Source of the DNA: a virus
Taxonomy: Duplodnaviria; Caudoviricetes
Length of the DNA: 24,136 nucleotides
Direction: 5' to 3' (one strand)
IMG/VR virus record: IMGVR_UViG_3300047284_000209
Span: 1 to 24,136 of that record
Position 1 is the stretch's first letter, and every line of letters begins with the position of its first letter. The notes below the pieces were generated by a model that made no database searches, had not been told where the DNA came from, and worked only from the letters and a program-made list of their open reading frames with translations. Both the position numbers and the translations under genes were made by a program. Positions 5,514 to 21,164 of this stretch are shown here, one piece after another.

Positions 5514-8500
5514 TTAACCTTCTTCTTCGGAAGCGGCGGCGGCAGCGGCTTTGGCGGCTCGGGTTTCTTCGTAAAACATGCGATTAAACTCGACTTGATA
5601 CTGTCTAATTTGCTCAGCAATTTCTTTACGCTGTTCATATTTCTCTTCTCTGGTTAAGGTTTCATCTTGCTGGATGTCTAGGTCTTGCGATCGCAAGTTA
5701 GATATCGCTCTCTTGTAGGCATCGGCTGAGCTGGTAAGCATTGCCAATCCCTCGATCGCCTGAGCATTCCTAAGCTCAGCCGGTTTCGGCTCATCCGTAG
5801 ACTCCATGACCTTGTCGTATCTTTGCTTGGCCTTCTCGGCTTCCTTGACGTTTTCGTAGAACGCACTGGAGTCGTAGCGGCCATCAGGCTGCCGGTGGAA
5901 CGCCTTCAACACAGGGATCAGGTTCTGCTCGGTAGCAGACGCAGTCCCAGTATTGGCCAGCGCATCAACAGTCTTGATGACATCCTTGATGAATGTTCCA
6001 GCGCCACCGGTAGCAAACGAAGTGATGTATTCGACAGACTCTGGCGATACGTCAATCATCGCGTCGCCAGTCTTGCCGCCGCTAACTTCATACAGCCAAG
6101 CAGTTGCTCTCTGAGTCAGCGTGTCTCTCGTGTTGTTCCAGTAGCGCTCGGCATCCGGTGTCACGCCAGTAAAGTCCTCTGGCATCAGAGGCTGGCCATT
6201 CTCCTTCTCCCCAGTTGCGATGACCAATGCAGGGTCAATCAACGTGGGCGATAGGAAGGTTGCCATGTTGTCCACGGAACCAAGGGGCGAGAAGTGGATG
6301 AATGCAGAATCTCGCATAAACGTAGCGACCTTCATCGGGTCTACGCCGCGATTCAAGTCATACATCGCATAGCCTAGGTTGACGAAGAAGCCAAGTCCGT
6401 AAGGCAGAGGCACGGAGTATGTCTCGCCATTCGGCCCGAAGAAGATCAGGTTCTTGAGCTTCTGCGGCTTCATCGACGGCTTATCCCAGTACGGCTCGTC
6501 ATCGTCGCCAACAGCCTGACTGGCCATTGCCGCAATGAACATACCAAGGGCGACCAAGCTTCCTGCTGCGGCAGCTCCTTTCTTGCTCAGCACAGCCTTG
6601 GCTGTTCTTGTCGCGCCCTGAATGGCGGGGTTGAAGAACAGGTACAGGCCGCTAAGCACCGGAGTCCACTTGCCGCGACGGTTGAAGTTGACCGTGATTT
6701 CCTTGGCGATGTTGGTTGCTTGGATGCGCGACTTGCCATTCTCAAGGGCTACCTTGTATGCGGCCAGTCGAGCGGCACCTTCGATAGCTCCGTTGATATC
6801 CATCATGAAGTCCTCGACTCCGCGCACGTACTTCATAGCAAGTGCGTCATAGGTGCGAGGGTTCTTGATGGAAGCCTGAGCTTGGCGATACGTAGCCATA
6901 AGATCGCTGTGCCGATCTTCGATGCTCTTGAGATCCATCGCGCCGGTCTTGCCGCCATCTTCGCGGTACATGTCGTAGTAACGCTTGAGGTCGCCAGTCC
7001 ACGAGTTGTTAGCCTCTGCTCGCCACACTGTGTAAGCAGCTTTAGGCAGCGAAGCGAACAGCTTGGCTGAACTCCAGAAGCCCTGCTCGACACCAGTGTT
7101 GATCAGCGATGTCTGCAGATCTCGGAAGCTGTTGACGAGGATGAACGGAGGGGACATAACAGTCCACAGTCGCGACAACACCCTGTTGAACGAGCCAAGT
7201 CCGCTTAGCATCGACTTGATCGTGTCTGGGAACTGCGACAGGACGCTCGTCATCTGCAGCTCTTCGAGTATCTCAGGGTCTTTGATTACCATGTGATACA
7301 CCTGACCGCCAACACGAACAGGCAGCGTCTCAGAATCCTTTTGAATAGTCAGCCGATAGCGGACTTCTTCGACAGGGTTCTTGTAGAACGCCTTCTGCAT
7401 AACAGGCTTGTTGACCTGCCACAGTGCGCTGTCCTTGTTGTCGAGGATGAACTTCAGCCAAGCCTTACGAACAGCATTGCGCTCAACAGCAACAACAGCA
7501 TCTTCGTAATCAGCGAGGATGTTCTCGACAATCGCACCGGCCTTTGTGCTGCGACCAGTACGGCGCTTAGCAAACGCCTGAGCAAGGTTGAATCTGCCAT
7601 TGCCGGTAGGTTTACCAAGCTCATCAGCTTGCTCGAACGTCTTCAGCGGAACGTAGTACTTGTACGTCGCATTCCAAGCGGCCACATCAGCAGGGCTGAC
7701 GATGTCTCCATCGACCAGAACACTTTGCGTTTGCTTTGTGATGCCCTGAAGCTGGTCGGCAATCTGCTTAATGCGCAGGAACTTCGGCATGTCCTGACGA
7801 AGGTCGTTCATGACCTGATCGGCCTCGGCATTGGTCATGCCTGAGCCGCCGTCGGGGTACTGCTTGTTGATCGACGCAACACGAGCGTTAGCTTCCTTGG
7901 CGTGAGACGCATACAAGTACAGCTCAACGTCAGCAAGGTCGACATTCAGCTCGGCTGCCTTGTCGAGGATCGGCTGGACAACATCCTTTCGGAAGCGATC
8001 GAGACGGTTTCCAGCCTTACCGTACATACGATGCATTGCCGACTCGATATCAGTCGAGTCAGTCAGTACACCGCCCTGCTCAGCAACAGCTCTTTGCACC
8101 TGAGCGGCGCGGCGAACTTCGTTCTGAATGCCGCGAATGATCTTGTTGACGCGACCGAATGCAGGGAGCCAGTACTTCCGGCCCTGACGGGCAACAGAGA
8201 ACTGGATCTCAGGACGGTTGGGGTCGAACGCACCAACATTGCCAACAGCGGACTTCAACTGTGTCGGCTCGTAAACAGCAAGGTTCTTAGCGCCCTGCTC
8301 AGCGACGTAGTAAGCATCGAACCCGGATGCCTTGATGGCATCTTGGATCTCGTTGCTCTCGATGACTCGCCAGTTACCGTTGACCATGCCATCGGTGATC
8401 TGCCGGTCTCTCGTCGAACCCGGAAGAGTCACGTTGTCCTTCCGCCACTGCTCGATAACCTGACTTACATTGTCAGCATTCTCGTAGTCGAACGGCTTCT

Positions 8501-11500
8501 CCGCTCGAACGTAGAGCGGGTAGATAGAACCGTTGACGCCAGCGTACGAAGCGGCAACATCCGGGTCAGCCGACACGAAGATCGCGCCGCCAGTGCCACG
8601 ACGGAAGACAGAGATGCCTTCTGCCAAGAACTCTTCGCGGCCAGCAACAGGCGGGATAGTCCCGTGGTACATGACCATCGGATCGCCGTTGTCGTCTACG
8701 ATCTGGCTGTCACCGAACCAGCTCTGGAACTCAGGCGTATCTACCTGCGGGTTTCTGACACGCGAGAACAACTGTGGCGCTGTTTCGATAGCGGCGTCCT
8801 GAGCGGCAACACCTTCTTCGTAGGCAGCGATCTGCTCGCCGCCAAGCTCAGAAGCATTGGCCGGGTCGTACACCATGAATACAACATCGGGTTCGCCATT
8901 GTTGAAGTTGGAGAACGCCGCCTTGTCCCAGCCTTCAGGGCTGTACTCGTCATTCCAGCCAACACGAGCAACGACCTTGAAGCCATTGTCTGCGTAGATT
9001 TCCGGAAGCACGGTGTCAAATGCATCAAGCTTACGACCGCCCTCGTCAACGGCGAGCTGCAGCATGGAGTTTGCCGCGCCCTTCAGACCGCTGAACACGG
9101 AGACGATGTCGTTGCCCTTCAGAGCAAAGCCAGACTTCCCGTCTTCGGAAATGAACAGGCGCATGTTGGCGTAGTCGGCCTCGTCATAGACGTAGACCGC
9201 AGCGCCAAACTTGCTTTTGTTCTTAGACGCCTGAATAGCCTGCCGGAACTCGGCTGGCGCATCGTCAAGCTCGTACATAACAGGGGCCGGTTTCCCGGCG
9301 GCCTGCATGGTGTTCTTAAATATGATGCTCGGCTTGTACTCCGCCTTGACCGGGGAGTTTAGAAACCGAATGCGTCGGCCACTTCCTGTGCTTTTTCCGG
9401 AGTAAGACCGGCGTGTCGTTTCACCGCTCTCTCGATAGCGCTTAACTGCTCGGGAGATGAGGACTCGGTCACGCTCTTTTGTGGTGAGCTGACGGGCTGC
9501 TTGGAGTCCATCAGGCTGTTCAGCTCCTTCGCGAGCAGCTTCAGCTTCTCGTCGGACAGCTTCATCAGCCAATCGTTGTGCGCGTCTTGATCCAGATTTT
9601 GCTGCTGCGCTGATTCGTCTTCCATCGTAACCTTCCTTTTTGAGAATTTTCTCAATGGCACCAGCATAGTCTTGGCTAGTGACACGAAGCTTTACACCAA
9701 ATGATTTATACAGCTCTTGCTCAGGATACCAGACAAGAGCCTGCATGGAAGCAGGCGGAACTCGTTCGCCAACAATTCCTTCAACAATACCAACAGTTGT
9801 TTTAACAATCTCACGTAGGTTGCGGCGCTCTGTTCCACTCGACGGAGCATCCTTTGGCTTGTCGAGAGACTTGACCATGTTGGTCGCGTTGTTGACGAGC
9901 GAACTCTTGACGCGATCCTTGCTGTCATAGGCCTTGCGATTGACCTTGAAGTCTTTCTCGTGAGCCTTGACCACAAGTCGAGCAAGCGAGATGGCTGCCT
10001 CTTCGTCATTGACAGCCTGTTCAACAAGCGCCTGATCGAACAGCCTGTTGCCGTCCTTGTCGCGAGAGTTGATGTAGATGCCATTGACTCCGCCAACAGC
10101 AAACGACGCACGGAACTTGCCAAGCTGTGACTTGAACAGCGCCTCGTCGAACGCACGAAGCTTGCCGGTCAGTCGGCCAATGGTTCGCATGAACCACATG
10201 TCGATCGTGACAGGCTCGAAGTTGCCGGACAGGTTCGAGTAGAAACCGAACCCGATCTTCGGGCCGAACACAGACGAGCCAAGGATCTTCTCGTCAGCAA
10301 GCTCGGAGATCTCGAAGCCCATCACGTTCATTTCAGACGTGGTGAACTCGGTCTCAAGGAAGCGGGAGAACTTGTCTACTCCCATCTCCTCGATCATTGC
10401 ATTGGCCAACTTGAAGTTGCTGACCATGGCTGGGCCGTTCTTACCCTGACCGCGCAACGGGAACGTCTTGTTGTCGCGATAGTCCTGATAAACGGACATG
10501 GCGAACTTGAGGTTGTCCTCGACGTTCAGGCCTTGCGATGTGATGGCCACAGAAAGGCGGAAGGCCATCTGCGCTTCTCGGTCTTCGGCCAGCTCTGGGA
10601 ACTTGAGAGAAGCCATCCCCATCGTCTTGGAGATCGTCTCGTTGTACCACTCCTGAGCAGCGCCGCCAGCGCGGATAGCAGCAACCACTTCGGCAGCGAG
10701 TAGCTTGGAAATGGTCTGACGGTCTTCTGCGTTATCGACATCGAGTCGACGCAAGCCAGCCTGACGGCGGATACGCTCGACCTCGAATACGGTTTCAGTC
10801 AGGCCGCCAACAGTGGCCGTGTTGAACTGGTCACCCTTGCTCTTGCCAGTCTGGAACTTGAGCGACGTAGCCTCGAACTCATCCGGAGTCAGGCCAACTT
10901 CGTCTGCAACAGACTGCGCAAACTCAGCGTTAGGAGTCGGGCGCTGCTTCGAGTACAAAGGCAGCTCTCGGACAACGCCATCCTCGTCGGTTACTTCTTG
11001 CGGCTCAACCCTGCCTTCTGCAGCGAGATCGCGACCGCCTGCTTCTGCGCCTTCTTCGCGCTCGACGGGCGGCTGCTCCCGATCTTGCCGGACTTCTGGT
11101 ACTTGTTCATCAGCTCGCTGACGTTCTGGCTGACGACGCTCTTCGACTTTCCTTTCTTCAGGGGCACGACGCTCTCCTATTCGTGTTGCAGTTGCTTCAT
11201 AGGTTCCATCCTCGGGCACAGCCTTAGCTCCGTCGACGACGGACTGGCGGTAATCGAGGGCGACCTTCCTCATGTCGGCTCTGCTCATGCCAGTGACGGC
11301 CATGAACCGAACCAATCTTGCCTCGGCTGCATCCCTGTCTGACTTGGTCGCGTTACGACCCATAGCCTTGTTCAGTTTTGCGCCAAGCTCAAACAAGTCC
11401 TTGTCTAGATCAGCAGCAAAGGTGACGAAGCGTCGGCCCTTGTTCCCAATGTTTACTTGGGCAGAGCGAGACGGCGGCACCTTGGGAGGCTGAGGGGCTG

Positions 11501-13883
11501 CAGGTTCAGCAACAGTCACAACAGGCTGTGCTGCGGCTGCTTGCTGTTGCGCAACAGCCTGAACTTGGGCTGCGGCCTGAGCCTGCTCCTGTGCCTGACG
11601 AGCTGCGGCCCACTGCTGGAACGCCTTCGTGGCTGCATCGCGGACGGCCATAGCATCCTTGCGCGACTTGACCACCATCGGCTGGTAACCCTGAAGAGAA
11701 TTCAGGATGCGGTCGATGATCTGGTTGATCGCGTTAAGGAACTGCTGTCCCAAGGTGGGATCATTGATCGCGCCGAACACATCCTCCCAGAACTTCGGCT
11801 GTCCGGCCTGCTCACCGATCATCTCGGCAACCAGCTCGGACTCGAACAGCTTGGTGTTCAGAGTGCCGTTGACCGTGGCTTCATTCCTGAGCGTGTTCTG
11901 GAACTGCTTAGAGACTTTCTGCTTGGCAAGGTCTACCAGTGTCCGATAGATAGCCGGGTACTGTGTCTCAAGAACATGGGTCAGCTCATGCCCAAGGGTG
12001 TTGAGCATGTTGAAGGTATTGGCGTCGATGACGATCGCGTCCCGCCCACCGATACGGAAGCCGTTAATACCGAACTTGATACGGCGACCCTTGTTGGTCT
12101 TGACCGCCCCACGGTCGAGGTTGGCCCATACCACGTCCACCCCGAAGGCCTGCTTGATGGTCTGAGCGATCTTGTCCCGAACCGGGTCGGCGGGAGCCTC
12201 CGGTATGACCATCGTCTCGCCTTCCGGTAGGGCGAATTGGGCGTTCAACTGCGTAATGGCAGTCTGCATCACCTCCCCTACGGGAACCGCTGTAATGCCA
12301 GCAGGCGCGGTAAATACGCCACTCTTGGTGGTAGCGGCCAAACCGTTCTTGACGGTCTGGTAGACCGCCCCGGCACGGGCATTCAGATCAGCGTCAGGAA
12401 TGCCTAGCTTTTCTGACAGGTTCTTTCGGAGATCATCGGCAAGCTGGACGTTCTCCTTGGTCTTGGGACGGGCGTTAAGCGCACCAAGGGAATACAGGGA
12501 CAGCTCGTCCTCGGTAGCGAATGAGGCATACCGGGTGTCGTCCGTGCCGAACTGGACGGGCACCGACAACTGCGGGTCTACCCCCTCTGGGAGGCTCTCA
12601 GGCTGGGCAATGGCTGCCTTGGCCTGCTCCACGACGGCGGCCCTATCGACCTCCGTAAGCTGTTCACGGAGCTGTTGCTCCATGTCCTGCAGCTCGGGAG
12701 CGGCAGTTGTTGCCGCTACAGGAGGAGGGGCGGCAATTCCTGCAGGCGCAGCAGCTTCGGCTGCTGGCTCAGCAGCAACAGTTGTGCTAGGCTGTTTAAC
12801 AGTAGGGATTTCGGCTGTGGCTGCGGGTTGACCAACAGGTGCCACTGGGGCCGGTTGCGCTTCAGCAACAGGCGGAGCCGGAGGGGGCGCTTCCGGGGGC
12901 TGTTCAAGGGCGGCTCTGTCGGCGGCTCGCTTTTCTAGCGCCTTAGCCGTGACCTCAACAGCCTTAGTCGTCCCAGCAAGAGATCCGGTCGTGAGCAGTG
13001 TCGAGATCAGGGTTACCGCCTGACGCTCGCCCTGAATCTTGGCCATCTCTAATGGCGTCTTAGCTGCAGAAAGCTCCTCATCAAGGCCATTCAGATAAGC
13101 ATTGGCAGACTGAGCTGCCGTAGCTACCTGCTCGCCGGGGACTTCGCCAGCAACGTATTTAACAAGGTTCTTGCGAAGGTCAGAGATGTTCTTAGAACCG
13201 AAGATATCGACAAGCTTGCCAACAGGCATAAGCTCAGTGCCGACTTCGATAGCAGCATCAACGGACGCATACTTAATTGCGTCATCGTGTGACTTACCTG
13301 CAGAGATAGCATTGCCGTAAGATTCCGTTCCGGTCTGTACGCCAGCCGCTGACAGGGCGATCGTAGGATTCTTTGTGAGAATAGATAGGGCAATGCCGGG
13401 AGCCATCTGTGCAGTACTAACAACTGCACCACGAACGCCTTTTTGAATGACGCCCATTTCTCCAGTAGGCTGAGCTTCCATCTCACGTTTTTGTGAGGCT
13501 TCAATCTCTTTACGCTGAGGCTCTGTGAGCTTGTCCATCAAGCTCTTCGGCATCGGAGGAAGCACTTGCTGCAACGTAGCTAACTGCAGCGTAGGAAGAA
13601 TGCGCTTAGCGCTTTCTACGATGCTTGTGCCTACGCCCTTAAAGTAGCCCTCTTCTTCAGGCTGGGCAGCAGGTGCGGCAGCGGGTTTAGCGGCTTCGGG
13701 CTTAGCTGGCTCCTCAAAGAGGAATGAAACATCATCGATCGCACGGGTGCGACGGCCAGTTTCAATCCCTTCAAGATCCTGAGCCACCTCCGTCTTGATG
13801 GCAGCAGCGCGTTCTTGTGTGCGCTGGACATCATTAGCCGGAGTGGCACCATTCTCAAAAAGGAATGAGATATCTCGTGCCAT
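5514..13883 (-). CDS. Giant polyvalent virion/ejection protein, 2789 aa
   Basis: HELTH metallopeptidase motif (11976-11990) with downstream ELVAE; WY...ITSQG..V..N...GPKIG..FY.NL...VTIDMW glycosylase-like block; GGRKLDAFD...Y...GF GNAT-like block; F-SWFGDS-IVD-NG-P-VMYHGT ART-like block; TVNFNRRG/LYLFFN--IQG/PLPYG LPD38-like C-terminus; last gene of the virion operon. Confidence 0.85.
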   Translation of the reverse strand: MARDISFLFENGATPANDVQRTQERAAAIKTEVAQDLEGIETGRRTRAIDDVSFLFEEPAKPEAAKPAAAPAAQPEEEGYFKGVGTSIVESAKRILPTLQLATLQQVLPPMPKSLMDKLTEPQRKEIEASQKREMEAQPTGEMGVIQKGVRGAVVSTAQMAPGIALSILTKNPTIALSAAGVQTGTESYGNAISAGKSHDDAIKYASVDAAIEVGTELMPVGKLVDIFGSKNISDLRKNLVKYVAGEVPGEQVATAAQSANAYLNGLDEELSAAKTPLEMAKIQGERQAVTLISTLLTTGSLAGTTKAVEVTAKALEKRAADRAALEQPPEAPPPAPPVAEAQPAPVAPVGQPAATAEIPTVKQPSTTVAAEPAAEAAAPAGIAAPPPVAATTAAPELQDMEQQLREQLTEVDRAAVVEQAKAAIAQPESLPEGVDPQLSVPVQFGTDDTRYASFATEDELSLYSLGALNARPKTKENVQLADDLRKNLSEKLGIPDADLNARAGAVYQTVKNGLAATTKSGVFTAPAGITAVPVGEVMQTAITQLNAQFALPEGETMVIPEAPADPVRDKIAQTIKQAFGVDVVWANLDRGAVKTNKGRRIKFGINGFRIGGRDAIVIDANTFNMLNTLGHELTHVLETQYPAIYRTLVDLAKQKVSKQFQNTLRNEATVNGTLNTKLFESELVAEMIGEQAGQPKFWEDVFGAINDPTLGQQFLNAINQIIDRILNSLQGYQPMVVKSRKDAMAVRDAATKAFQQWAAARQAQEQAQAAAQVQAVAQQQAAAAQPVVTVAEPAAPQPPKVPPSRSAQVNIGNKGRRFVTFAADLDKDLFELGAKLNKAMGRNATKSDRDAAEARLVRFMAVTGMSRADMRKVALDYRQSVVDGAKAVPEDGTYEATATRIGERRAPEERKVEERRQPERQRADEQVPEVRQDREQPPVEREEGAEAGGRDLAAEGRVEPQEVTDEDGVVRELPLYSKQRPTPNAEFAQSVADEVGLTPDEFEATSLKFQTGKSKGDQFNTATVGGLTETVFEVERIRRQAGLRRLDVDNAEDRQTISKLLAAEVVAAIRAGGAAQEWYNETISKTMGMASLKFPELAEDREAQMAFRLSVAITSQGLNVEDNLKFAMSVYQDYRDNKTFPLRGQGKNGPAMVSNFKLANAMIEEMGVDKFSRFLETEFTTSEMNVMGFEISELADEKILGSSVFGPKIGFGFYSNLSGNFEPVTIDMWFMRTIGRLTGKLRAFDEALFKSQLGKFRASFAVGGVNGIYINSRDKDGNRLFDQALVEQAVNDEEAAISLARLVVKAHEKDFKVNRKAYDSKDRVKSSLVNNATNMVKSLDKPKDAPSSGTERRNLREIVKTTVGIVEGIVGERVPPASMQALVWYPEQELYKSFGVKLRVTSQDYAGAIEKILKKEGYDGRRISAAAKSGSRRAQRLADEAVRREAEAAREGAEQPDGLQAARQLTTKERDRVLISRAVKRYRESGETTRRSYSGKSTGSGRRIRFLNSPVKAEYKPSIIFKNTMQAAGKPAPVMYELDDAPAEFRQAIQASKNKSKFGAAVYVYDEADYANMRLFISEDGKSGFALKGNDIVSVFSGLKGAANSMLQLAVDEGGRKLDAFDTVLPEIYADNGFKVVARVGWNDEYSPEGWDKAAFSNFNNGEPDVVFMVYDPANASELGGEQIAAYEEGVAAQDAAIETAPQLFSRVRNPQVDTPEFQSWFGDSQIVDDNGDPMVMYHGTIPPVAGREEFLAEGISVFRRGTGGAIFVSADPDVAASYAGVNGSIYPLYVRAEKPFDYENADNVSQVIEQWRKDNVTLPGSTRDRQITDGMVNGNWRVIESNEIQDAIKASGFDAYYVAEQGAKNLAVYEPTQLKSAVGNVGAFDPNRPEIQFSVARQGRKYWLPAFGRVNKIIRGIQNEVRRAAQVQRAVAEQGGVLTDSTDIESAMHRMYGKAGNRLDRFRKDVVQPILDKAAELNVDLADVELYLYASHAKEANARVASINKQYPDGGSGMTNAEADQVMNDLRQDMPKFLRIKQIADQLQGITKQTQSVLVDGDIVSPADVAAWNATYKYYVPLKTFEQADELGKPTGNGRFNLAQAFAKRRTGRSTKAGAIVENILADYEDAVVAVERNAVRKAWLKFILDNKDSALWQVNKPVMQKAFYKNPVEEVRYRLTIQKDSETLPVRVGGQVYHMVIKDPEILEELQMTSVLSQFPDTIKSMLSGLGSFNRVLSRLWTVMSPPFILVNSFRDLQTSLINTGVEQGFWSSAKLFASLPKAAYTVWRAEANNSWTGDLKRYYDMYREDGGKTGAMDLKSIEDRHSDLMATYRQAQASIKNPRTYDALAMKYVRGVEDFMMDINGAIEGAARLAAYKVALENGKSRIQATNIAKEITVNFNRRGKWTPVLSGLYLFFNPAIQGATRTAKAVLSKKGAAAAGSLVALGMFIAAMASQAVGDDDEPYWDKPSMKPQKLKNLIFFGPNGETYSVPLPYGLGFFVNLGYAMYDLNRGVDPMKVATFMRDSAFIHFSPLGSVDNMATFLSPTLIDPALVIATGEKENGQPLMPEDFTGVTPDAERYWNNTRDTLTQRATAWLYEVSGGKTGDAMIDVSPESVEYITSFATGGAGTFIKDVIKTVDALANTGTASATEQNLIPVLKAFHRQPDGRYDSSAFYENVKEAEKAKQRYDKVMESTDEPKPAELRNAQAIEGLAMLTSSADAYKRAISNLRSQDLDIQQDETLTREEKYEQRKEIAEQIRQYQVEFNRMFYEETRAAKAAAAAASEEEG
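9359..9625 (-). CDS. Nested +1-frame gene B inside the giant gene, 88 aa
   Basis: SD AAGGAAGG 5 nt before ATG 9625; MEDESAQQQNLDQDAHNDWLMKLSDEKLKLLAKELNSLM...AIERAVKRHAGLTPEKAQEVADAFGF reads like a helical protein; coincides with an R/A/G-rich linker in the main frame. Confidence 0.65.
   Translation of the reverse strand: MEDESAQQQNLDQDAHNDWLMKLSDEKLKLLAKELNSLMDSKQPVSSPQKSVTESSSPEQLSAIERAVKRHAGLTPEKAQEVADAFGF
10991..11167 (-). CDS. Nested +1-frame gene A inside the giant gene: small basic DUF6496-like protein, 58 aa (not in track)
   Basis: SD TAGGAG before GTG 11167; MPLKKGKSKSVVSQNVSELMNKYQKSGKIGSSRPSSAKKAQKQAVAISLQKAGLSRKK, stop TAA 10993-10991; MPLKKG-S...S-N--EL...KQAVAI is a recognisable family of stand-alone phage proteins. 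Confidence 0.8.
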   Translation of the reverse strand: MPLKKGKSKSVVSQNVSELMNKYQKSGKIGSSRPSSAKKAQKQAVAISLQKAGLSRKK

Positions 13884-13886
13884 TTA

Positions 13887-15077
13887 TTATTCCTCTGAGT
13901 CAGGCGAGTTCAATGCAGATGTTCTAGTAGCAGCAGAGTTGGCGAATGATTCCCTCATGTCAGCAATTCCCTGCTCAGAGTTCAGGTACGCATTAACCCT
14001 GTCTTGCAGGAATGTCTGCTCGAAGTTGTTCATTGCGGCAGCGTTAAGGACTCGGACGCCAGCTTTCTTAGCCGCAGCTTCAAGGCTTGCTTTGTACTGC
14101 GGGTGAAGCTGGATTTGCTTTACCTTGCCAATAGCAAAGGCAACGGCTTCGTTGCGATTAGCGCCATATTCCATAGCGCTTGACGCAATGTCAGCTTGAA
14201 TTGCTTTGCCGAATGGCATTTTACCGGGGTTCTTACCCGGCATCGCAGGAGTCGAGAAAGCCAGATCAGGGAACTCTTTGGCAACAATAGGCTTACCCTG
14301 TCTAACGGCTTCCGTTCTAGCGCCAGAGAGTGCAGCGCTAGCTACGGCAGCAGTCGTCCTTGCACCAGACTCTTTAATCGCGGCTTCAGTCTTTCTCTCT
14401 TCAAGCTGGCGAGCTTTGATCTTGTCGAAAGCATCGATGCCGAGAGCAGAGAACATCTGATCGAGAGGGCGTGTCATAGTCTGCCCGTCAAGAGTCACAG
14501 CCTCGATCTTTGCCGAGCCGTCAACGAGAGAGCCGGTAACCTTCACAGTATCAGGATTAAGGTTCAGCTTCTTCGCCAAGAACTTGAGCGAGTTCTGATC
14601 TTTACCATCAGTCAGGTACAGGTTAAGACCAGCATCAGCCAAGCCTGACTTGTTCAGGTAGTTGGCGTACTCGTTGGAAGCCTTGATGTCCTCTGGCTTC
14701 AGCATCCCGTTGTTCATCAGGATACGAGTGTATCCAGAGTGGTAGCGAAGCTGACGCTCACGGCCTTCCGGTGTGCTGTCGTAGATGTCGTAGTACTTGC
14801 GCACCTTCTGAGTAGGCGCAGCACTGGGAGCCTGTCCCGGCATGGCCTGAACAGGAACATCCTCGTCATACCCGAACACGCTGTCCTGCAGTTGCTGGAT
14901 CTCTGTCAGAGCTTTCTCTTGCTTCTGCCGCTGCTGACGAACGTAATCACGCTCCTCTTCCTTAGCGGCAAGATCAGCCATAGTGATCGCTTGCTGACGG
15001 CGCTGCTCAGAGCGACGCAGGTTTGCTTCCTGCTGCTGCTGGAGACCGCGAACTAGACCTTCTGCGAAGCTGGCCAT
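13887..15077 (-). CDS. Putative internal virion / DNA ejection protein, 396 aa
   Basis: N-terminal ASFAEGLVRG plus Q/R/E-rich coiled coil; lies between an ejection-type gene and the giant gene; SD GAGGAAGG. Confidence 0.6.
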   Translation of the reverse strand: MASFAEGLVRGLQQQQEANLRRSEQRRQQAITMADLAAKEEERDYVRQQRQKQEKALTEIQQLQDSVFGYDEDVPVQAMPGQAPSAAPTQKVRKYYDIYDSTPEGRERQLRYHSGYTRILMNNGMLKPEDIKASNEYANYLNKSGLADAGLNLYLTDGKDQNSLKFLAKKLNLNPDTVKVTGSLVDGSAKIEAVTLDGQTMTRPLDQMFSALGIDAFDKIKARQLEERKTEAAIKESGARTTAAVASAALSGARTEAVRQGKPIVAKEFPDLAFSTPAMPGKNPGKMPFGKAIQADIASSAMEYGANRNEAVAFAIGKVKQIQLHPQYKASLEAAAKKAGVRVLNAAAMNNFEQTFLQDRVNAYLNSEQGIADMRESFANSAATRTSALNSPDSEE

Positions 15078-15079
15078 GA

Positions 15080-16159
15080 TTAACCCTTCCTCAAAGCTTT
15101 ACGCCGACGGCTCTTACGCACAGGCGTGTGATGTTTATCGAGCAGTTTGTCGAAGAACTCCTTGCCCTTCTCGCGAACTACATCTGCAGGAATGATGTAC
15201 TCGCCATTGCTCAGGCGGATCGGAGTGTTATCGGAAGTGTTAATCGCCTGAACGCTGTCCGAAGTGCCAGTGCCGGGGCCGGAGATCTTGCCGCCGTCGC
15301 CGTACTCGTTCTTGTCCATCGCGTCCTTAACGACGTTCTCAACCTTTCCGCCATCAGCCGCACCCGGCATGAAGTAGCCGAGAGCCATGCCACCAAGCTG
15401 ACCGAGCGCACCGGCAAGTCCGCTATTCGCTTGGCTATAGGCGAGCTGGTTCTGGTAGCCCATGTTCATCAGGTTGCCAGCGCCTTGAATGCCGCCCATC
15501 TGTCCTTGCAGTCCACCCATAGCGCCTTGGAAGCCAGCATACATCGGAGCATTCTGCTGCTGGACGAGTGCGCCAGTGGCGCTTCCGACGTTTGCGCCAG
15601 TGCCGATAGCAGAGAGCTGCTGAGCCGGAAGGCCGCGACCCATTGCTGCGGCGTTATAGCGGAGTCCTGTTGCATACTGCTCTCCGGCCAGACGGCCAGC
15701 CGTCTTAGCGCCAGCGGTTGCGGCAGCACCTCGCAGTGCGAACTCGTTGTTCAGAGCGGCAAAGCGAGCAGCATTCGGGTTCACGCCCATGCGAGTCAGG
15801 TTGCGCATCGCGGCACCGCGCTGCTGAGCAAGTGACTGCTCAACGTCTGCAGCGGCACGGCCAGCGAAGATGTCCCCGCGCTCCATGGCAGAAGTACGCT
15901 GAGCCTCTTCGACCAAACTGTCTTCGAGGGCGCGGTACTTCAGTCGCTCCTTGGCGGCATCCTTTGCCATCTCCATCGCAAGGCTCTGCCCCTGCAAGTT
16001 GGAGGCAACGAGCTGCTGGTAGAGAGGCATCGTTTCCTGATACCGCTGCTGACCAAAGGCTAGCTGTTGCTGCCCGAGGGCTGCCATCTTGTCTCCGACT
16101 TCACGCATCGCGTTAGCGAGCGGCGTAAAGTCCGGCGGCGGGGGCGCATCACTGCACAT
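15080..16159 (-). CDS. Putative DNA ejection (pilot) protein, 359 aa
   Basis: N-terminal APPPPDF, A/Q/G-rich helices, GALGQLGGMALG glycine zipper, C-terminal GPGTGTSDS...LSNGEYIIPA motif; SD CAGGAG; follows the GNAT gene. Confidence 0.65.
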   Translation of the reverse strand: MCSDAPPPPDFTPLANAMREVGDKMAALGQQQLAFGQQRYQETMPLYQQLVASNLQGQSLAMEMAKDAAKERLKYRALEDSLVEEAQRTSAMERGDIFAGRAAADVEQSLAQQRGAAMRNLTRMGVNPNAARFAALNNEFALRGAAATAGAKTAGRLAGEQYATGLRYNAAAMGRGLPAQQLSAIGTGANVGSATGALVQQQNAPMYAGFQGAMGGLQGQMGGIQGAGNLMNMGYQNQLAYSQANSGLAGALGQLGGMALGYFMPGAADGGKVENVVKDAMDKNEYGDGGKISGPGTGTSDSVQAINTSDNTPIRLSNGEYIIPADVVREKGKEFFDKLLDKHHTPVRKSRRRKALRKG

Positions 16160-16162
16160 GTG

Positions 16163-16759
16163 TTACTCCTGCAATATCTTAGTGAGTTGGTTGCCGGTGT
16201 GGTTATATCCGAGATGCTGTAACAGCCTGCCAACATCGTTGACTGTTTTGACTGTTACTCGAATCTCCGTCACACCCATGTTCGCGAGAACATATTCCAC
16301 GTATCGGATGAGACGAACCCCGAGCCGACCTTTGCGGTATTCAGGGAGGATGTAGATAGTGTCTTCTTCTGCCACCCACTTCTGTGTGTGGGTGCTTCTG
16401 GACAGATACATCATGCAGTTGCCGACCATGACTCCGTTCACGCGAACAGTGAACAGGATGAACCGCCCGTGGTTCTCTGCATTGACCATGTAGTCGTAGT
16501 CTGGGTTCATTTCCAGACCGTGCCGATATGACTCAGTCTCAGCCCAGTGCTGGGCATGAATCGGCTTGATCTCGTCTAAGACATAAGCAAGCCGCTCGGC
16601 AGCGATTCTAGCGTCGCCGTACAGCTCGGGAAGGATGTCCTCGACGTTGATCGAGTTGTCTTGAGGCGGCGCGTTGACCGACATCAAGATGCCTAAAGCA
16701 AGCTCCTCCGTCAGCACGTTACCTATGTTCTGCTGCAGAACGCTTGCTAGGTCTTTCAT
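16163..16759 (-). CDS. GNAT-family N-acetyltransferase
   Basis: EDTIYILPEYRKGRLGVRLI (motif A) and LLQHLGY (motif B); position between tail and ejection genes is usual for podoviruses. Confidence 0.85.
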   Translation of the reverse strand: MKDLASVLQQNIGNVLTEELALGILMSVNAPPQDNSINVEDILPELYGDARIAAERLAYVLDEIKPIHAQHWAETESYRHGLEMNPDYDYMVNAENHGRFILFTVRVNGVMVGNCMMYLSRSTHTQKWVAEEDTIYILPEYRKGRLGVRLIRYVEYVLANMGVTEIRVTVKTVNDVGRLLQHLGYNHTGNQLTKILQE

Positions 16760-17076
16760 TTCGGGTACTTCGCTTTGACAGCCATAAACTTTCTGCGCAT
16801 CTCTTCCATGGCCTCCCCTCCTTTCCAGATGGCATCGAGCTGCTCTTCTACGCTGGGGTATTCGCTCTTCCGCTTCTGCCAGTAAGCCCCTTCAGGACTG
16901 CCTAGTATCTTTTCTACAATGACGCTTCCTGATTTCTCGTAGGCTATTTCCTGAGTTACAGGGTTGTAATCCTTCTTGTCTGCGACAATGACCGGATACC
17001 AGCCATCTCCATCGCCCGGAGAGCTTTGAGGGTACGACTCTCTGCCGTTCTCTCCCCACTTCATGAACATTAGCAT
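16756..17076 (-). CDS. Putative tail-fibre chaperone/accessory protein, 106 aa
   Basis: KRKSEYPSVEEQLDAIW...AVKAKYPK C-terminal motif typical of genes following tail fibres; coupled to the fibre stop. Confidence 0.6.
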   Translation of the reverse strand: MLMFMKWGENGRESYPQSSPGDGDGWYPVIVADKKDYNPVTQEIAYEKSGSVIVEKILGSPEGAYWQKRKSEYPSVEEQLDAIWKGGEAMEEMRRKFMAVKAKYPK

Positions 17077-20000
17077 TAGCGTATCCCCATCACGACAACG
17101 TCTATCGCTTGGATGTAAAGAGCGTTAGCCCACTGCGCCCTAACCCTTACATCGAAAACCCTAGCCTGAGTTGTTTGGGAAAGACCGGTGAACAAAGACA
17201 CGCTGGTCATGTCATAAGCGTCCCAGTAAGTGTCCATGACAAGCGTATACGGGCCAACAACTCCATTGCCTAGGGTGGCTCTAGTTCTTGTGTAATAACT
17301 GCCAAGGTTGGTATTTGGGGCAGATACGAAGACGACTGTATTAGTCCCATTAAAACTCGCACTAGATACAGATCCAGAATCGCCTTCGCTTGATGTAATG
17401 ATATCTCCTGACTGAATATCAAGCTGTCCACTAAAGTGCAAAATCCACCCTAAAACTTCAACAAGTCCAAACTCTATCGATTGAGTCCAGAATTCTTGGT
17501 ACACCGGAGTTATAGGGCCAATGGCAGGAGTTGGTATCCCGTCTCCAACAGGAGCCGAGTAAACCTCAAGGTATCCGCCAACTTGGTAAGGAGCAGCATC
17601 TCTAATTGAGACCTGAATGTATGGCTTATGGCCTGCCGAGTGCGTTGACTTAGGCAGAGTGAGATTTACGTAGGACGTAAACGTCGATGGGATCGGGCCT
17701 GATGGAGCCGCATATCCTGTAATGAACTTCGTTACGTCGCCAGTCAGCTTTTCAACATTAAGAGAGCCGATCTTAGCGCCATTGATATTTGCTTGATCGG
17801 AGATCAGAAGGTCAGTGATGGCACCGCCCTTGATCGAAAGAAGTCCGCCCGGAGTTGCCGTCAGAACAGCCGAGTCGATGTTAAGGCGAGAAGTTGAGAT
17901 CGTGCCTGAAGTGATCTTGCTAGCATCGAGGCTCGTGATCTGCGCATTTCTAATGGTTGCATTTTCAATTTGCGCAGTGGTTATCGTGCCGTCTTTGATT
18001 CTAGCTGTATCAAGATAGACAATGTTGTCTATGACTTGGAACGGGAAGTAGTTTGTCGGAGATCCGCTTGCCGAGTTTGAGACTCTGAAAGCTGAGGCAA
18101 CAAACGTAGCAACACCTCCGGCAATCGAGCATGTTGGGTTAGCAGGTGTGAAGCCAATGACATTGTCATTGCCGTCAGTCTGCACAGTCGTGCTGCCACC
18201 AGAGTACAGCTCAGTGCCATACACCTTAGCGCCATTGATTCCGACAACTGCGTTGATGTAGCCAGTGGTGATCTTGTTCGCGGTGAGCGATGCAATCTTG
18301 GCGCTAGTAATGGTCGCGTCCTGAATGAACGCAGACTTGATGTAGACGCCATTAGGGACATTAGGTACGCCACTGACGTACGCAAACGGAACGCTGTCAG
18401 TCGACGGGTTGTTGGTTAGGTTGTTAGTCGTCGAGGCAGGGTCAACGATCGCAAACTTGTCTGCACGGATAATGAAAGCAGATGTCGGTGTGCCGTTGAC
18501 GCTAGTGCTTGATAGACCAAAGCCAGACACATGGCCGTTGTTGTCGATCTTGACCGAGTACTGTCCAAGCAGAGTGTTGTTCGTGCCGCGCTGTGTAGTG
18601 AAGCGCTGCTCGATAGCAACAGTATCAAGGCCGTCAGATACGCGAACCTGCTTAACAGCAGAAGCTAGCGGTATGCCGACGTTCCACGTAGCAAGGTTGC
18701 CGGGGTTAGCGGCATTCCATGTATCTACGCCAGCCTTGTTCTTGATGGCACCGCCGTTATCGAACGGCTCGCCAGTCGAGTTCAGTGTCGCATAGCCGAT
18801 CTTGGTAGTTTCAAGGCTTACGATAGACGCAGCATTCTGCGGAATACGGGCATCTTCTGTTAGCACCCAAGAAGAACCATTCCATCGGTAAGGCTTGTTG
18901 GTGCCATCAGACGTGTCAAACCAAACGTCGCCAGTAATCAATCCAACTGTAGGCGCAGATGACTGCCGGTAAGTTCTGTTCTTCGATGCCGCAACAGTCT
19001 CGACGCTGTTCATGCGAGTCGCGAGACCTGTTGTAGGATGATTTACGTCATCCTCAAGCTCGGCATAAGTCTCCTGCAGGCTGCTTACGTTAGACGAAAT
19101 AGACTGAATGCGACCATCGTCAGTCGGTGTGAACGTGGTTCCGTTCCACCGATACATCTTGTTGTTGTCGTCGGTATCAAACCAAAGGTCGCCAACAATA
19201 AAAGATCCGCTACCATTCGGAGTTGTCGGCATGGAGGCTTGACTGTAAACAGAGATCTTTACGTCAACCTTGGAAGATATTCCAGAGACAACGGTGTTCA
19301 GGTTGCTGATCGCTGTTGTTCTAGAAGTCCGCTCGTCGCCAATCAGTCCGCCAGCGCTATTAAGTGTCACTCCAGTAGGGGTGGTAAACCCAATAATGGC
19401 AGTAGACAGCAACTGTCTAGATGAGGCCTCCGAACTGTCAGCAGTAGTTCTTGCTGTTTTTTCGTCACCTATAAGGCCGGTTACTGTGTTTAGCGTCAGG
19501 CCTGATGGGTTTGTTGTTCCGGTGATAACAGTAGACAGAAGCTCTCTTGCTGTTACCTCTGCAGAGTCTGCTGAGGCACGAGCAGTGGCTTCTTCGAGAA
19601 TTGCGGCAGTTGAGGCTGCAGGAGCGTTTCTTCCTACAGACACCCAGTCAACATCGAACACTTCGCCACTTGTGCCAAGCAGAAGCTGGATGTTGGTAAT
19701 TGTTCCGCCAGTCCAGTCAGTCGTGCCATCAAGATCCCAGTCGACGATGTTGGTTGCGCCAACAGCGATGCCGGGGTCTGCAATAGTCTTTTCGTAAGTT
19801 GCACTAAAGCCGTGCGCGGTTGTCTTCCAGCGAAGCTTGCCAACCCAGCCTGTGCCGGACACGCGCTTGATTCGAGCCTTTACGATTCGATAAGCAGCGC
19901 CAATGAATCCGGGGTTGAAATCAGAAGCCACGCTGATGGAAGGGTTTGCGCCCGTCGGCGTAACGGTAACAAATCCGTTACCAACAGAAAGAGTCGCATC

Positions 20001-21164
20001 AGTGCTAGTCCATCCTTCGACAGACGAGTCAAAGTGCCAAGTCTCGTACGGGTCAAATCCGCCCGACACGCCAGCGGTAAGCAGAGATATCTGCTGCGCA
20101 AGAGCGCTATCTTGGCTTGAACGAGCCTGCCTTTCTTGGAAGATCAGGCCGGTGGTGATATCGGCAAGGTTGTTGCCCGTGTATCCGCCACGAAGCTGAG
20201 TAGCAAGTGTATTGCGCTGCGTAGCCTCTGCCGAGTCGCCGTCAGCGCGAGCCTGAGCTTCAGCCTGTATGGCAGAAGTCAGAGTCTGGTTGTTGGTGTT
20301 TACGCTGGCCGTCAGAGTCGTAATGTCGGAGGCCAGAGATGAGTCAGCATTCTGTCTGGCAATCTGCTCGTTTGTGATAGCAGCGCCACGGGCAGCAGCT
20401 TCATCGAGAATTGCCTGCGCTCTAGTTGCAGCTTCTGCAGAAACAGCAGCAACACGATCAGTGAACTCACGCAGCATTCGAGCATTGACCGAGTTGGCAA
20501 GCTCAGATGGGCCATCGATCAGGTCGATGCGGGAAGAAAGATTCTTGACGAAGTCGCTATCAAGGAAGTCCTTCTCGATGATCTTGATCAGTTCTTTCGG
20601 ATCTACGCTGGCCTTGGCAGAAGCGGACTCTTGGCTGTACGGGCCAGTGACGTTGGCCTTCGATACGAAGCGAACCCAGTAGTAGTACGTGAACTCTTTC
20701 GCATTCGGGCTATCCATGTAGCCCTGAGAAGAGCTAGTAGCGATCTTTGTCGCAGCGCCAATGTCATCGCTCTCTGCTCGCCAAACCTCAGCAAGCTGAT
20801 GGTTCTTGTAGGCAGGCTGATCCCAAGTGACGAAGATAATTCCAATAGACCCACTAGCCACCACATTCTCAGGAGCTGGCGGAGGCGTCAAATCTATCGT
20901 CGGGTCGTATCCGTCAGGATCTACGCCGCTAGGGATAACAGTGTTGCCGTTCCCACGAACAGAAGTCGGATTGTACTTAACAGAGCCAGTAGCGTCCTGA
21001 GCCAAACCAAGAAGGATGAGGTCACGGTAAGTGACATTCGAGTCCATCTTGTCGCCAACATGTCCCTCGCGCACATCAAGAAGCTGCTTGATAGCGCTAA
21101 GGACGCTCTCAGTAGAGCTGATGCCAGCATCTGGAATTGACGGGACTTTGGTCTCTCTACTCAT
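17076..21164 (-). CDS. Tail fibre / host-specificity protein with DUF1983-like (J C-terminal) domain, 1362 aa
   Basis: N-terminal FN3-like domain (YYYWVRFVS...GPYS); E--AR--AD coiled-coil repeats; two GD-WFDT-D--K-YRWNG modules; YSVKIDNNGHVSGFGL...FIIRADKFAI; ITSAKI/ITTAQI repeats. Confidence 0.85.
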   Translation of the reverse strand: MSRETKVPSIPDAGISSTESVLSAIKQLLDVREGHVGDKMDSNVTYRDLILLGLAQDATGSVKYNPTSVRGNGNTVIPSGVDPDGYDPTIDLTPPPAPENVVASGSIGIIFVTWDQPAYKNHQLAEVWRAESDDIGAATKIATSSSQGYMDSPNAKEFTYYYWVRFVSKANVTGPYSQESASAKASVDPKELIKIIEKDFLDSDFVKNLSSRIDLIDGPSELANSVNARMLREFTDRVAAVSAEAATRAQAILDEAAARGAAITNEQIARQNADSSLASDITTLTASVNTNNQTLTSAIQAEAQARADGDSAEATQRNTLATQLRGGYTGNNLADITTGLIFQERQARSSQDSALAQQISLLTAGVSGGFDPYETWHFDSSVEGWTSTDATLSVGNGFVTVTPTGANPSISVASDFNPGFIGAAYRIVKARIKRVSGTGWVGKLRWKTTAHGFSATYEKTIADPGIAVGATNIVDWDLDGTTDWTGGTITNIQLLLGTSGEVFDVDWVSVGRNAPAASTAAILEEATARASADSAEVTARELLSTVITGTTNPSGLTLNTVTGLIGDEKTARTTADSSEASSRQLLSTAIIGFTTPTGVTLNSAGGLIGDERTSRTTAISNLNTVVSGISSKVDVKISVYSQASMPTTPNGSGSFIVGDLWFDTDDNNKMYRWNGTTFTPTDDGRIQSISSNVSSLQETYAELEDDVNHPTTGLATRMNSVETVAASKNRTYRQSSAPTVGLITGDVWFDTSDGTNKPYRWNGSSWVLTEDARIPQNAASIVSLETTKIGYATLNSTGEPFDNGGAIKNKAGVDTWNAANPGNLATWNVGIPLASAVKQVRVSDGLDTVAIEQRFTTQRGTNNTLLGQYSVKIDNNGHVSGFGLSSTSVNGTPTSAFIIRADKFAIVDPASTTNNLTNNPSTDSVPFAYVSGVPNVPNGVYIKSAFIQDATITSAKIASLTANKITTGYINAVVGINGAKVYGTELYSGGSTTVQTDGNDNVIGFTPANPTCSIAGGVATFVASAFRVSNSASGSPTNYFPFQVIDNIVYLDTARIKDGTITTAQIENATIRNAQITSLDASKITSGTISTSRLNIDSAVLTATPGGLLSIKGGAITDLLISDQANINGAKIGSLNVEKLTGDVTKFITGYAAPSGPIPSTFTSYVNLTLPKSTHSAGHKPYIQVSIRDAAPYQVGGYLEVYSAPVGDGIPTPAIGPITPVYQEFWTQSIEFGLVEVLGWILHFSGQLDIQSGDIITSSEGDSGSVSSASFNGTNTVVFVSAPNTNLGSYYTRTRATLGNGVVGPYTLVMDTYWDAYDMTSVSLFTGLSQTTQARVFDVRVRAQWANALYIQAIDVVVMGIR

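What the first reader, a model, noticed from the sequence alone, without database searches (positions are those of the whole stretch)
10991..11167. Nested gene A: a normally free-standing basic phage protein hidden in the +1 frame
Seen: TAGGAG-agcgtc-GTG then MPLKKGKSKSVVSQNVSELMNKYQKSGKIGSSRPSSAKKAQKQAVAISLQKAGLSRKK-stop, below the track's length cutoff. From recall: MPLKKG-S...KQAVAI proteins (DUF6496-like) are small Lys-rich phage proteins usually encoded on their own. A recognisable family in the alternative frame argues that it is the ancestral gene and the giant protein's linker is the overprint. DNA binding or condensation is inferred from charge.
Basis: partly seen in the sequence, partly recalled or inferred. 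Interest (0 to 1): 0.85.

Follow-up and report, generated by a model that had tools for sequence, protein, structure and literature searches.

The report
Old virion gene inside giant gene
A conserved 58-codon gene of a widespread phage family lies wholly inside a giant phage gene, one base out of step, and likely makes a small basic protein packed into the phage head; the same gene appears to have been engulfed by giant genes several times, which ordinary annotation misses.

Summary
Confirmed, on the minus strand: a 58-codon ORF (11167→10991, GTG, TAGGAG) lies in the +1 frame of a 2789-aa polyvalent phage protein (LPD38, ART-PolyVal). ORF, ribosome-binding site and stop are intact in 11 of 11 relatives; host synonymous change collapses across it (1 of 48 codons against 42%). 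The peptide belongs to phrog_2423; it is DUF6496-related but misses the Pfam cut-off. The family is mostly free-standing, often beside portal or head genes; a Pbunavirus member was found in virions by mass spectrometry. It is nested, always +1, in seven giant-gene lineages seen as DNA, and its off-frame footprint occurs in 25 further long proteins. Distribution and codon usage both make the small gene the older frame, and one origin is weakly rejected (p 0.026). The host frame is also constrained. Translation is not shown; DNA binding is inferred from charge only. Five literature searches found no description, but embedded phage genes are known (Rz/Rz1, ShiLan), and this scan noted the same family nested in other genomes.

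The parts
10991..11167 (-). Nested gene A: 58 aa, 6.2 kDa, pI 11.0, phrog_2423 family (long subtype); predicted two-helix hairpin (helices 9-26 and 37-52)
11174..11179 (-). Shine-Dalgarno-like TAGGAG, 6 nt before the GTG; its TAG closes the nested frame upstream; region less structured than 199 of 200 shuffles
5514..13883 (-). Host gene: 2789-aa polyvalent protein, last gene of a podovirus-type virion cluster; likely packaged and ejected
   Evidence: role inferred
10992..11168 (-). Host-frame reading of the overlap (codons 906-964): Glu/Arg/Gln-rich hydrophilic linker with atypical codon usage
8226..8696 (-). ART-PolyVal domain of the host (aa 1730-1886, 65.4 bits, cut-off 31.2)
5949..6464 (-). 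LPD38 domain of the host (aa 2474-2645, 77.6 bits, cut-off 27)
9359..9625 (-). Second nested +1 ORF (B), 88 aa, AAGGAAGG upstream; the only other dip in host synonymous change (4 of 45)
13887..23800 (-). Upstream virion cluster on the same strand: internal virion protein (phrog_511), tail protein, acetyltransferase, virion structural protein (phrog_8003)

Best explanation
A conserved 58-codon gene of phage family phrog_2423 lies wholly inside the giant virion-protein gene, one base out of frame, and is likely translated from its own ribosome-binding site into a small basic protein that is likely packed inside the phage head, where it would bind the packaged DNA. Shown: the ORF, its conservation, selection on its frame, family membership, and the same nesting in other giant genes. 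Inferred: (1) ribosomes start internally at TAGGAG-GTG on the late virion mRNA (no promoter-like site found nearby); (2) the product is a virion protein like its Pbunavirus relative; (3) its conserved N-terminal helical hairpin needs a free N-terminus, so the gene keeps its own start rather than fusing in frame, and the Lys-rich surface contacts DNA; (4) the small gene is older, and giant polyvalent genes captured it repeatedly by reading through it (loss of a stop between modules, or in-frame insertion), which is possible almost only in this phase; afterwards wobble positions were tuned so that the host frame reads as a stop-free hydrophilic linker. My odds: real translated gene 0.9; small gene older 0.85; more than one capture 0.7; virion protein 0.7; DNA as main partner 0.45.
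For: Intact with the same SD, GTG and stop position in 11 of 11 relatives, whose hosts are 60-73% identical to the window's for 10 of them. Against L083: 18 base differences, 7 silent in the nested frame but changing the host, 1 silent in the host; 6 of 58 nested against 11 of 59 host residues differ; host synonymous change 1 of 48 against 505 of 1196. Codon adaptation 0.763 in the nested frame (above all 121 other +1 windows, max 0.659) and 0.586 in the host frame (2 of 121 host windows lower). Nested in giant genes in L001/L002, L010, L043, L066, L078, L268, L292, always +1, hosts not alignable around the nest. A profile of the off-frame footprint found 521 proteins; 26 of the best 150 are 600 aa or longer, 26 of 26 fit the start motif in +1 and 24 of 26 the second motif, against 0 of 44,206 control positions; DNA of a relative of one of them holds the intact gene (L301). 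Host-phase frame open in 31 of 194 free copies, the other frame in 6 of 194. One nested clade rejected, p-AU 0.026. Upstream neighbour of family copies: head and packaging in 41 of 106 (17 portal, 14 phrog_241), no hit in 40. Pbunavirus S1 ORF22 (phrog_2423, E 1.3e-28) detected in particles, 7 peptides, 77% coverage (PMC6521218 Table 1); Pa193 gp21, same length and position, also detected (PMC11456595). Module N-terminal in 114 of 120 longer homologs, and at the N-terminus of the AP22 head maturation protease.
Against: No translation data; RNA contigs over the region are patchy, strandless and low-depth. Nested-synonymous sites are conserved too (6 of 50), so recent exchange of the segment or real host-frame function contributes. 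The tree has only 53 columns and few supported forks. The 25 protein-only hosts were picked by a profile built partly from nested copies, several are related to each other, and only one was checked on a relative's DNA. S1 ORF22 was found in particles after DNA release and is only about +3 net over 68 residues (my count), which fits shell or protein binding as well as DNA binding. Many members sit in bacterial chromosomal contexts with no capsid genes in the six neighbourhoods I listed. The K1E copy has an in-frame stop, so the gene can be dispensable. Within-gene shuffles did not show consistent positional tuning of host charge (p 0.03 to 0.99 over 7 genes).
Confidence: 0.62

Rival explanations
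1. The gene is real and packaged, but its hairpin binds a head protein (capsid inner wall, portal or MuF-type minor head protein) and serves as a head-targeting or assembly module; the lysines are secondary.
For: Retained in DNA-released particles of S1; invariant residues M1 P2 L3 K4 G6 N15 A44 A46 are mostly non-basic; N-terminal on a head maturation protease and on many longer proteins; often follows portal or phrog_241 genes.
Against: Occurs in podo-, sipho- and myovirus records and in bacterial chromosomal contexts, so the partner would have to be very general; the Pa193 counterpart is among the virion proteins not assigned in the passages read.
Confidence: 0.25
2. The nested copy is a relic: an engulfed gene no longer translated, conserved because the host linker is under selection or because the segment was recently exchanged.
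For: Both frames show low divergence in the overlap; GTG start; no expression data.
Against: Changes favour silence in the nested frame 7 to 1; conservation starts at the SD and ends at the stop, whose TAA/TAG swap keeps the stop; all 9 DNA copies compared keep start and stop.
Confidence: 0.07
3. The family was born by overprinting inside the giant gene's linker and later escaped to become free-standing.
For: The nested state is widespread among giant proteins; internal de novo frames are usually +1 (PMC8227390).
Against: Free copies dominate all three surveys; three length subtypes each occur free and nested; codon usage favours the nested frame as ancestral; related giant genes lack it.
Confidence: 0.08
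4. The ORF is not made alone but joined to the giant protein by programmed frameshifting.
For: Same strand, adjacent phase.
Against: In-frame stop three codons before the GTG; no slippery heptamer in the window copy, none at a shared place in 9 copies.
Confidence: 0.03

Closest known systems
phrog_2423 small phage proteins (Pbunavirus S1 ORF22; Pfam PF20106 DUF6496 neighbours)
   Same: Same family by HMM and profile alignment with S1 ORF22 (probability 95%); late or head-module context.
   Different: Normally free-standing or N-terminally fused; here wholly embedded. The window peptide has a 15-residue insert against the short subtype and misses the DUF6496 cut-off.
Lambda Rz/Rz1 embedded spanin genes (PMC5295617, passages read)
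   Same: Small gene wholly inside a larger one, same strand, +1 frame, lying over a linker-like part of the host.
   Different: Rz and Rz1 are two subunits of one machine; here the hosts are unrelated around the nest, no partnership is shown, and the small gene also lives alone.
ShiLan insertion: out-of-frame HNH endonuclease in actinophage methylase genes (PMC11855218, abstract read)
   Same: An existing gene with a GTG start sits out of frame inside a host gene whose frame reads through it as a loop.
   Different: ShiLan is a homing selfish element; A has no nuclease motif, is virion-associated by family, and no clean with/without allele pair was found.
Phage polyvalent proteins (PMC5512222, passages read); phi24B gp47 (bioRxiv 10.64898/2026.04.10.717836, passages read)
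   Same: Host has LPD38 and ART-PolyVal, about 2800 aa, in the virion module; gp47 with LPD38 was in the virion proteome and proposed as an ejection protein.
   Different: Neither text mentions nested genes under the terms searched (overlap, nested, reading frame).

Membership tests
phrog_2423 | HMM match | tested here: met
   E 2.8e-8, best stretch residues 1-21 of 52; close homolog P0007 E 2.5e-11 in two stretches, short member P0030 E 6.6e-19
phrog_2423 | Conserved N-terminal motif, Asn15 and C-terminal Ala-rich helix motif | tested here: met
   alignment A2, 46 sequences
Pfam PF20106 DUF6496 | Score at or above the 24-bit gathering cut-off | tested here: not met
   no Pfam hit at E<=0.05 for the window peptide; relatives P0027 and P0028 (62-63% identical) score 30.9 and 30.0; ESM Atlas third hit is a cluster with DUF6496 in 17% of members
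Embedded same-strand phage genes (Rz/Rz1 type) | Whole ORF inside another gene, +1 frame, own start and ribosome-binding site | tested here: met
Embedded same-strand phage genes (Rz/Rz1 type) | Both frames under selection | tested here: met
   one effective comparison between two clades
Embedded same-strand phage genes (Rz/Rz1 type) | Both proteins shown to be made | not testable with these tools
   only RNA contigs available
Embedded same-strand phage genes (Rz/Rz1 type) | Products act together in one complex | not tested
   no complex prediction was obtained
Phage polyvalent proteins (host) | Several characteristic domains in one large polypeptide | tested here: met
   LPD38 and ART-PolyVal above cut-off
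Phage polyvalent proteins (host) | Encoded with virion genes and packaged | tested here: inconclusive
   gene context met; packaging inferred from phi24B gp47
ShiLan-type homing insertion | Nested ORF encodes an endonuclease | tested here: not met
   58-aa two-helix peptide with no nuclease family hit
ShiLan-type homing insertion | Empty and filled alleles at the same site | tested here: inconclusive
   11 of 11 close relatives filled; two distant giants lack A but differ in modules at that junction
Known DNA-condensing or DNA-protecting small proteins | Shared fold with a solved structure | tested here: inconclusive
   Foldseek no E<=0.001; VIA best Z 5.1, rmsd 2.4, 51 aligned

The most novel reading that the evidence does not exclude
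Giant polyvalent ejection genes grow by swallowing neighbouring small virion genes whole and reusing their off-frame reading as linkers, so that each giant gene is a hidden operon; gene A is kept inside because its product, made from the same mRNA with a free N-terminus, is co-packaged with the giant protein and escorts it or the DNA through packaging and ejection.
Probability: 0.22. Interest if true: 0.82.

Novelty: new variant of a known kind. Interest (0 to 1): 0.6.

Why it matters
It reverses the textbook overprinting order (the small embedded gene is the old one and the host linker the new text) and shows the capture repeated across many unrelated giant virion genes, with a codon-level reason for the fixed +1 phase. 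Annotation drops such genes, so virion parts lists of uncultured podoviruses are incomplete and 'disordered linkers' of polyvalent proteins can be misread. The family has free-standing members in cultured, well-studied phages (Pbunavirus, Obolenskvirus, SP6-like), so its function can be tested at once.

Tried and rejected
Chance: ORF plus SD alone is not significant (53 of 200 shuffles). Structure: no PDB sequence match, no Foldseek match at E<=0.001 in PDB or BFVD (top BFVD rows look like family members), VIA best Z 5.1; no NCBIfam hit. RNA element as the cause of conservation: no Rfam match in 9000-12500. Internal promoter: none in 10500-12000. Runs: four DNA runs showed no listed variant inside A among the 40 rows printed, 77 rows hidden, uninformative; four RNA runs gave scattered contigs, uninformative for expression. 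TC6 proteomics resolved only 18-190 kDa bands, so it says nothing on its small member. The off-frame alignment was too variable for a DNA scan; a word-based search with it gave 6 hits, 2 of them long, both my own inputs. A tblastn of the L043 off-frame peptide against cultured phages gave nothing credible; no cultured phage with a nested A was found. Relatives of P0197 were not found. Two loci flagged by a loose rule (L221, L289) were dropped as short open frames, not giant hosts; about seven of the 120 pattern hits are not family members; one of 107 neighbour ORFs (L147) was dropped as a false match. The 124 short hits among the best 150 were not checked. Positional tuning of host charge was not supported, although nested footprints are more acidic than GC-matched free ones (-0.08 against +0.03, 7 against 75, p 0.005).

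Full report
Observation. The window is a whole 24,136-base contig with a minus-strand virion cluster: internal virion protein, tail protein, acetyltransferase, a virion structural protein and, last, a 2789-aa ORF at 13883→5514 with ART-PolyVal and LPD38 domains above their cut-offs. The reported ORF is on the minus strand, 11167→10991, 58 codons from GTG to TAA, in the +1 frame of that gene over host codons 906-964, with TAGGAG 6 nt upstream. An ORF of that size with such a site arises in 53 of 200 synonymous shuffles of the giant gene, so the anatomy alone proves little.

Is it a gene? Eleven relatives of the giant gene were found. All 11 keep the ORF, the same SD-GTG and the stop at the same place; they form essentially one clade, so this is one deep comparison. 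Against L083, host codons with an unchanged residue differ synonymously in 505 of 1196 cases outside, but 1 of 48 inside A (p about 1e-10); a sliding scan shows only two dips along the gene, at A and at a second nested ORF B (4 of 45). Of 18 base differences, 7 are silent in the nested frame while changing the host and 1 is silent in the host; 6 of 58 nested and 11 of 59 host residues differ. Nested-synonymous sites are conserved as well (6 of 50), so the host frame is constrained too, or the segment was exchanged recently. The nested frame has gene-like codon usage (0.763, above all 121 other +1 windows), the host frame over it does not (0.586; 2 of 121 host windows lower). The start region folds less than 199 of 200 shuffles; no promoter-like site and no Rfam match was found. 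An in-frame stop three codons upstream and the lack of a slippery heptamer argue against a frameshift fusion. RNA contigs cover parts of the giant gene, A included, but give no strand or level.

Family. The peptide matches phrog_2423 (E 2.8e-8) and 54 of 264 candidate proteins. It has no Pfam hit; 13 of 46 aligned members hit DUF6496 at E<=0.05 and two pass the cut-off, so it is DUF6496-related, not a member by threshold. A short-subtype member matches 513 of 50,697 phage records at E<=1, many of them weakly. AlphaFold gives a confident two-helix hairpin (pLDDT 90) with no significant fold match. The nearest upstream ORF of 106 family copies is a head or packaging gene in 41 cases (17 portal, 14 phrog_241) and has no hit in 40. 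The Pbunavirus S1 member ORF22 (phrog_2423 E 1.3e-28; profile match) was found by mass spectrometry in particles after DNA release, 7 peptides and 77% coverage (PMC6521218, passages and Table 1 read). Pa193 gp21, of the same 207-nt length and position (sequence not compared), was detected in mature virions and listed as unknown (PMC11456595, passages and supplement search; one supplementary file could not be read). The module is N-terminal in 114 of the 120 best longer homologs (109 by motif, 5 variants starting at residue 1) and heads the AP22 head maturation protease. Members also sit in bacterial chromosomal contexts, and the K1E copy has an in-frame stop.

Nested against free. In 80 viral loci ranked by similarity, 6 were nested in long genes; in 120 pattern hits, 2, both repeats of those; in 80 genome loci, 2 more. 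That gives seven lineages on DNA, all +1. Six hosts are 1000-3200-aa genes that follow smaller same-strand genes in a virion-type cluster; the seventh (L268) is a contig-cut fragment. They are not alignable around the nest. All keep a start with an SD-like or A-rich leader and a stop. A profile of the off-frame footprint (25 sequences, 6 of them nested) found 521 of 1.84 billion proteins; 26 of the best 150 are 600 aa or longer, one being my own input. All 26 fit the start motif in +1 and 24 the second motif, against 0 of 44,206 control positions; the selection makes this partly circular, and some hosts are related. As a direct check, DNA of a relative of one hit holds an intact 44-codon copy in +1 of a 2590-codon gene (L301). 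Eight of the 25 have Pfam hits, among them LPD38, ART-PolyVal and helicase domains. The fixed phase has a simple cause: the host-phase frame is open in 31 of 194 free copies, the other frame in 6.

Order of events. Both published criteria, wider distribution and codon usage (PMC8227390, passages read), make the small gene ancestral. Nested copies fall in three length subtypes that also occur free; on a 94-row tree they need 7 changes, supported branches force at least 2, and an AU test on 43 rows rejects one clade at p 0.026; with 53 columns this is modest support. Giant genes of Limnohabitans phage DC33 and MW202640 share domains with the host but have no copy in the 18.5 kb fetched. I infer capture by read-through or in-frame insertion during module shuffling. 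Nested footprints are more acidic than GC-matched free ones (p 0.005) and lack Cys, Phe and Trp, but a positional test was not consistent.

Mechanism. Most likely A is made by internal initiation on the late mRNA and packed into the head with the giant protein, which by analogy with phi24B gp47 (supplements not seen) is an ejected protein. Its near-constant N-terminal position suggests a need for a free N-terminus, which would explain nesting instead of in-frame fusion. DNA binding (13 Lys, 2 Arg, 1 Glu, pI 11.0) is my preferred activity because the partner must be common to very different phages and to bacteria; binding to a head protein is the close rival. Neither was tested.

Novelty. Embedded +1 phage genes are known (Rz/Rz1), as is an old gene read through by a host frame (ShiLan). 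Five searches (listings only) and a term search of the polyvalent-protein paper found no description of nested genes in polyvalent proteins, and DUF6496 appears in no paper of the library, which lacks most subscription journals. This scan's own unchecked notes report +1 nested genes in polyvalent linkers on other genomes, including this family; they are not independent support. Verdict: real, a new variant of a known kind, function still inferred; interest 0.6.

Noticed in passing
window 9359-9625 (-): Second nested +1 ORF (B, 88 aa) with strong SD; intact in 10 of 11 relatives, lost where L092 swaps the downstream module; no Pfam, PHROG or Atlas family hit.
   Followed up: partly
L299 (Limnohabitans phage DC33, PQ492659), giant gene codons 1279 and 1562; L300 codons 1235 and 1458: A cultured phage carries a 71-aa B-like +1 ORF with a strong SD and a similar C-terminus at about the same junction, plus further +1 ORFs with SD; not annotated; a test system for nested genes.
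   Followed up: partly
L041, L064, L070, L071, L074, L079, L105, L166: An upstream ORF of about 105 codons reads through nearly all of the family gene in the same phase and stops 2-5 codons before its stop, behind a phrog_241 head gene: a possible half-way stage of capture.
   Followed up: partly
P0058, P0060, P0061, P0063; L211, L095, L165, L178: A family of 107-111-aa called proteins carries the same off-frame footprint, a second small-gene overlap class.
   Followed up: no
L213-L292 (genome loci): Long-subtype members sit in Bacteroidales, Mycoavidus and Rugosibacter contigs among non-phage-looking genes, sometimes several per genome.
   Followed up: no
L296:3501-3623 (phage AP22): The module is the N-terminus of the Obolenskvirus head maturation protease.
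   Followed up: partly
L295:2801-2950 (phage K1E): Unannotated copy overlapping the end of the tailspike gene, with an in-frame stop.
   Followed up: no
window 11547-11571: An 18-base in-frame deletion in the host gene's Ala/Gln-rich stretch in two DNA runs.
   Followed up: no
L010 and L301 nested copies: No SD; an A-rich leader instead, as in the Bacteroidales copies.
   Followed up: no
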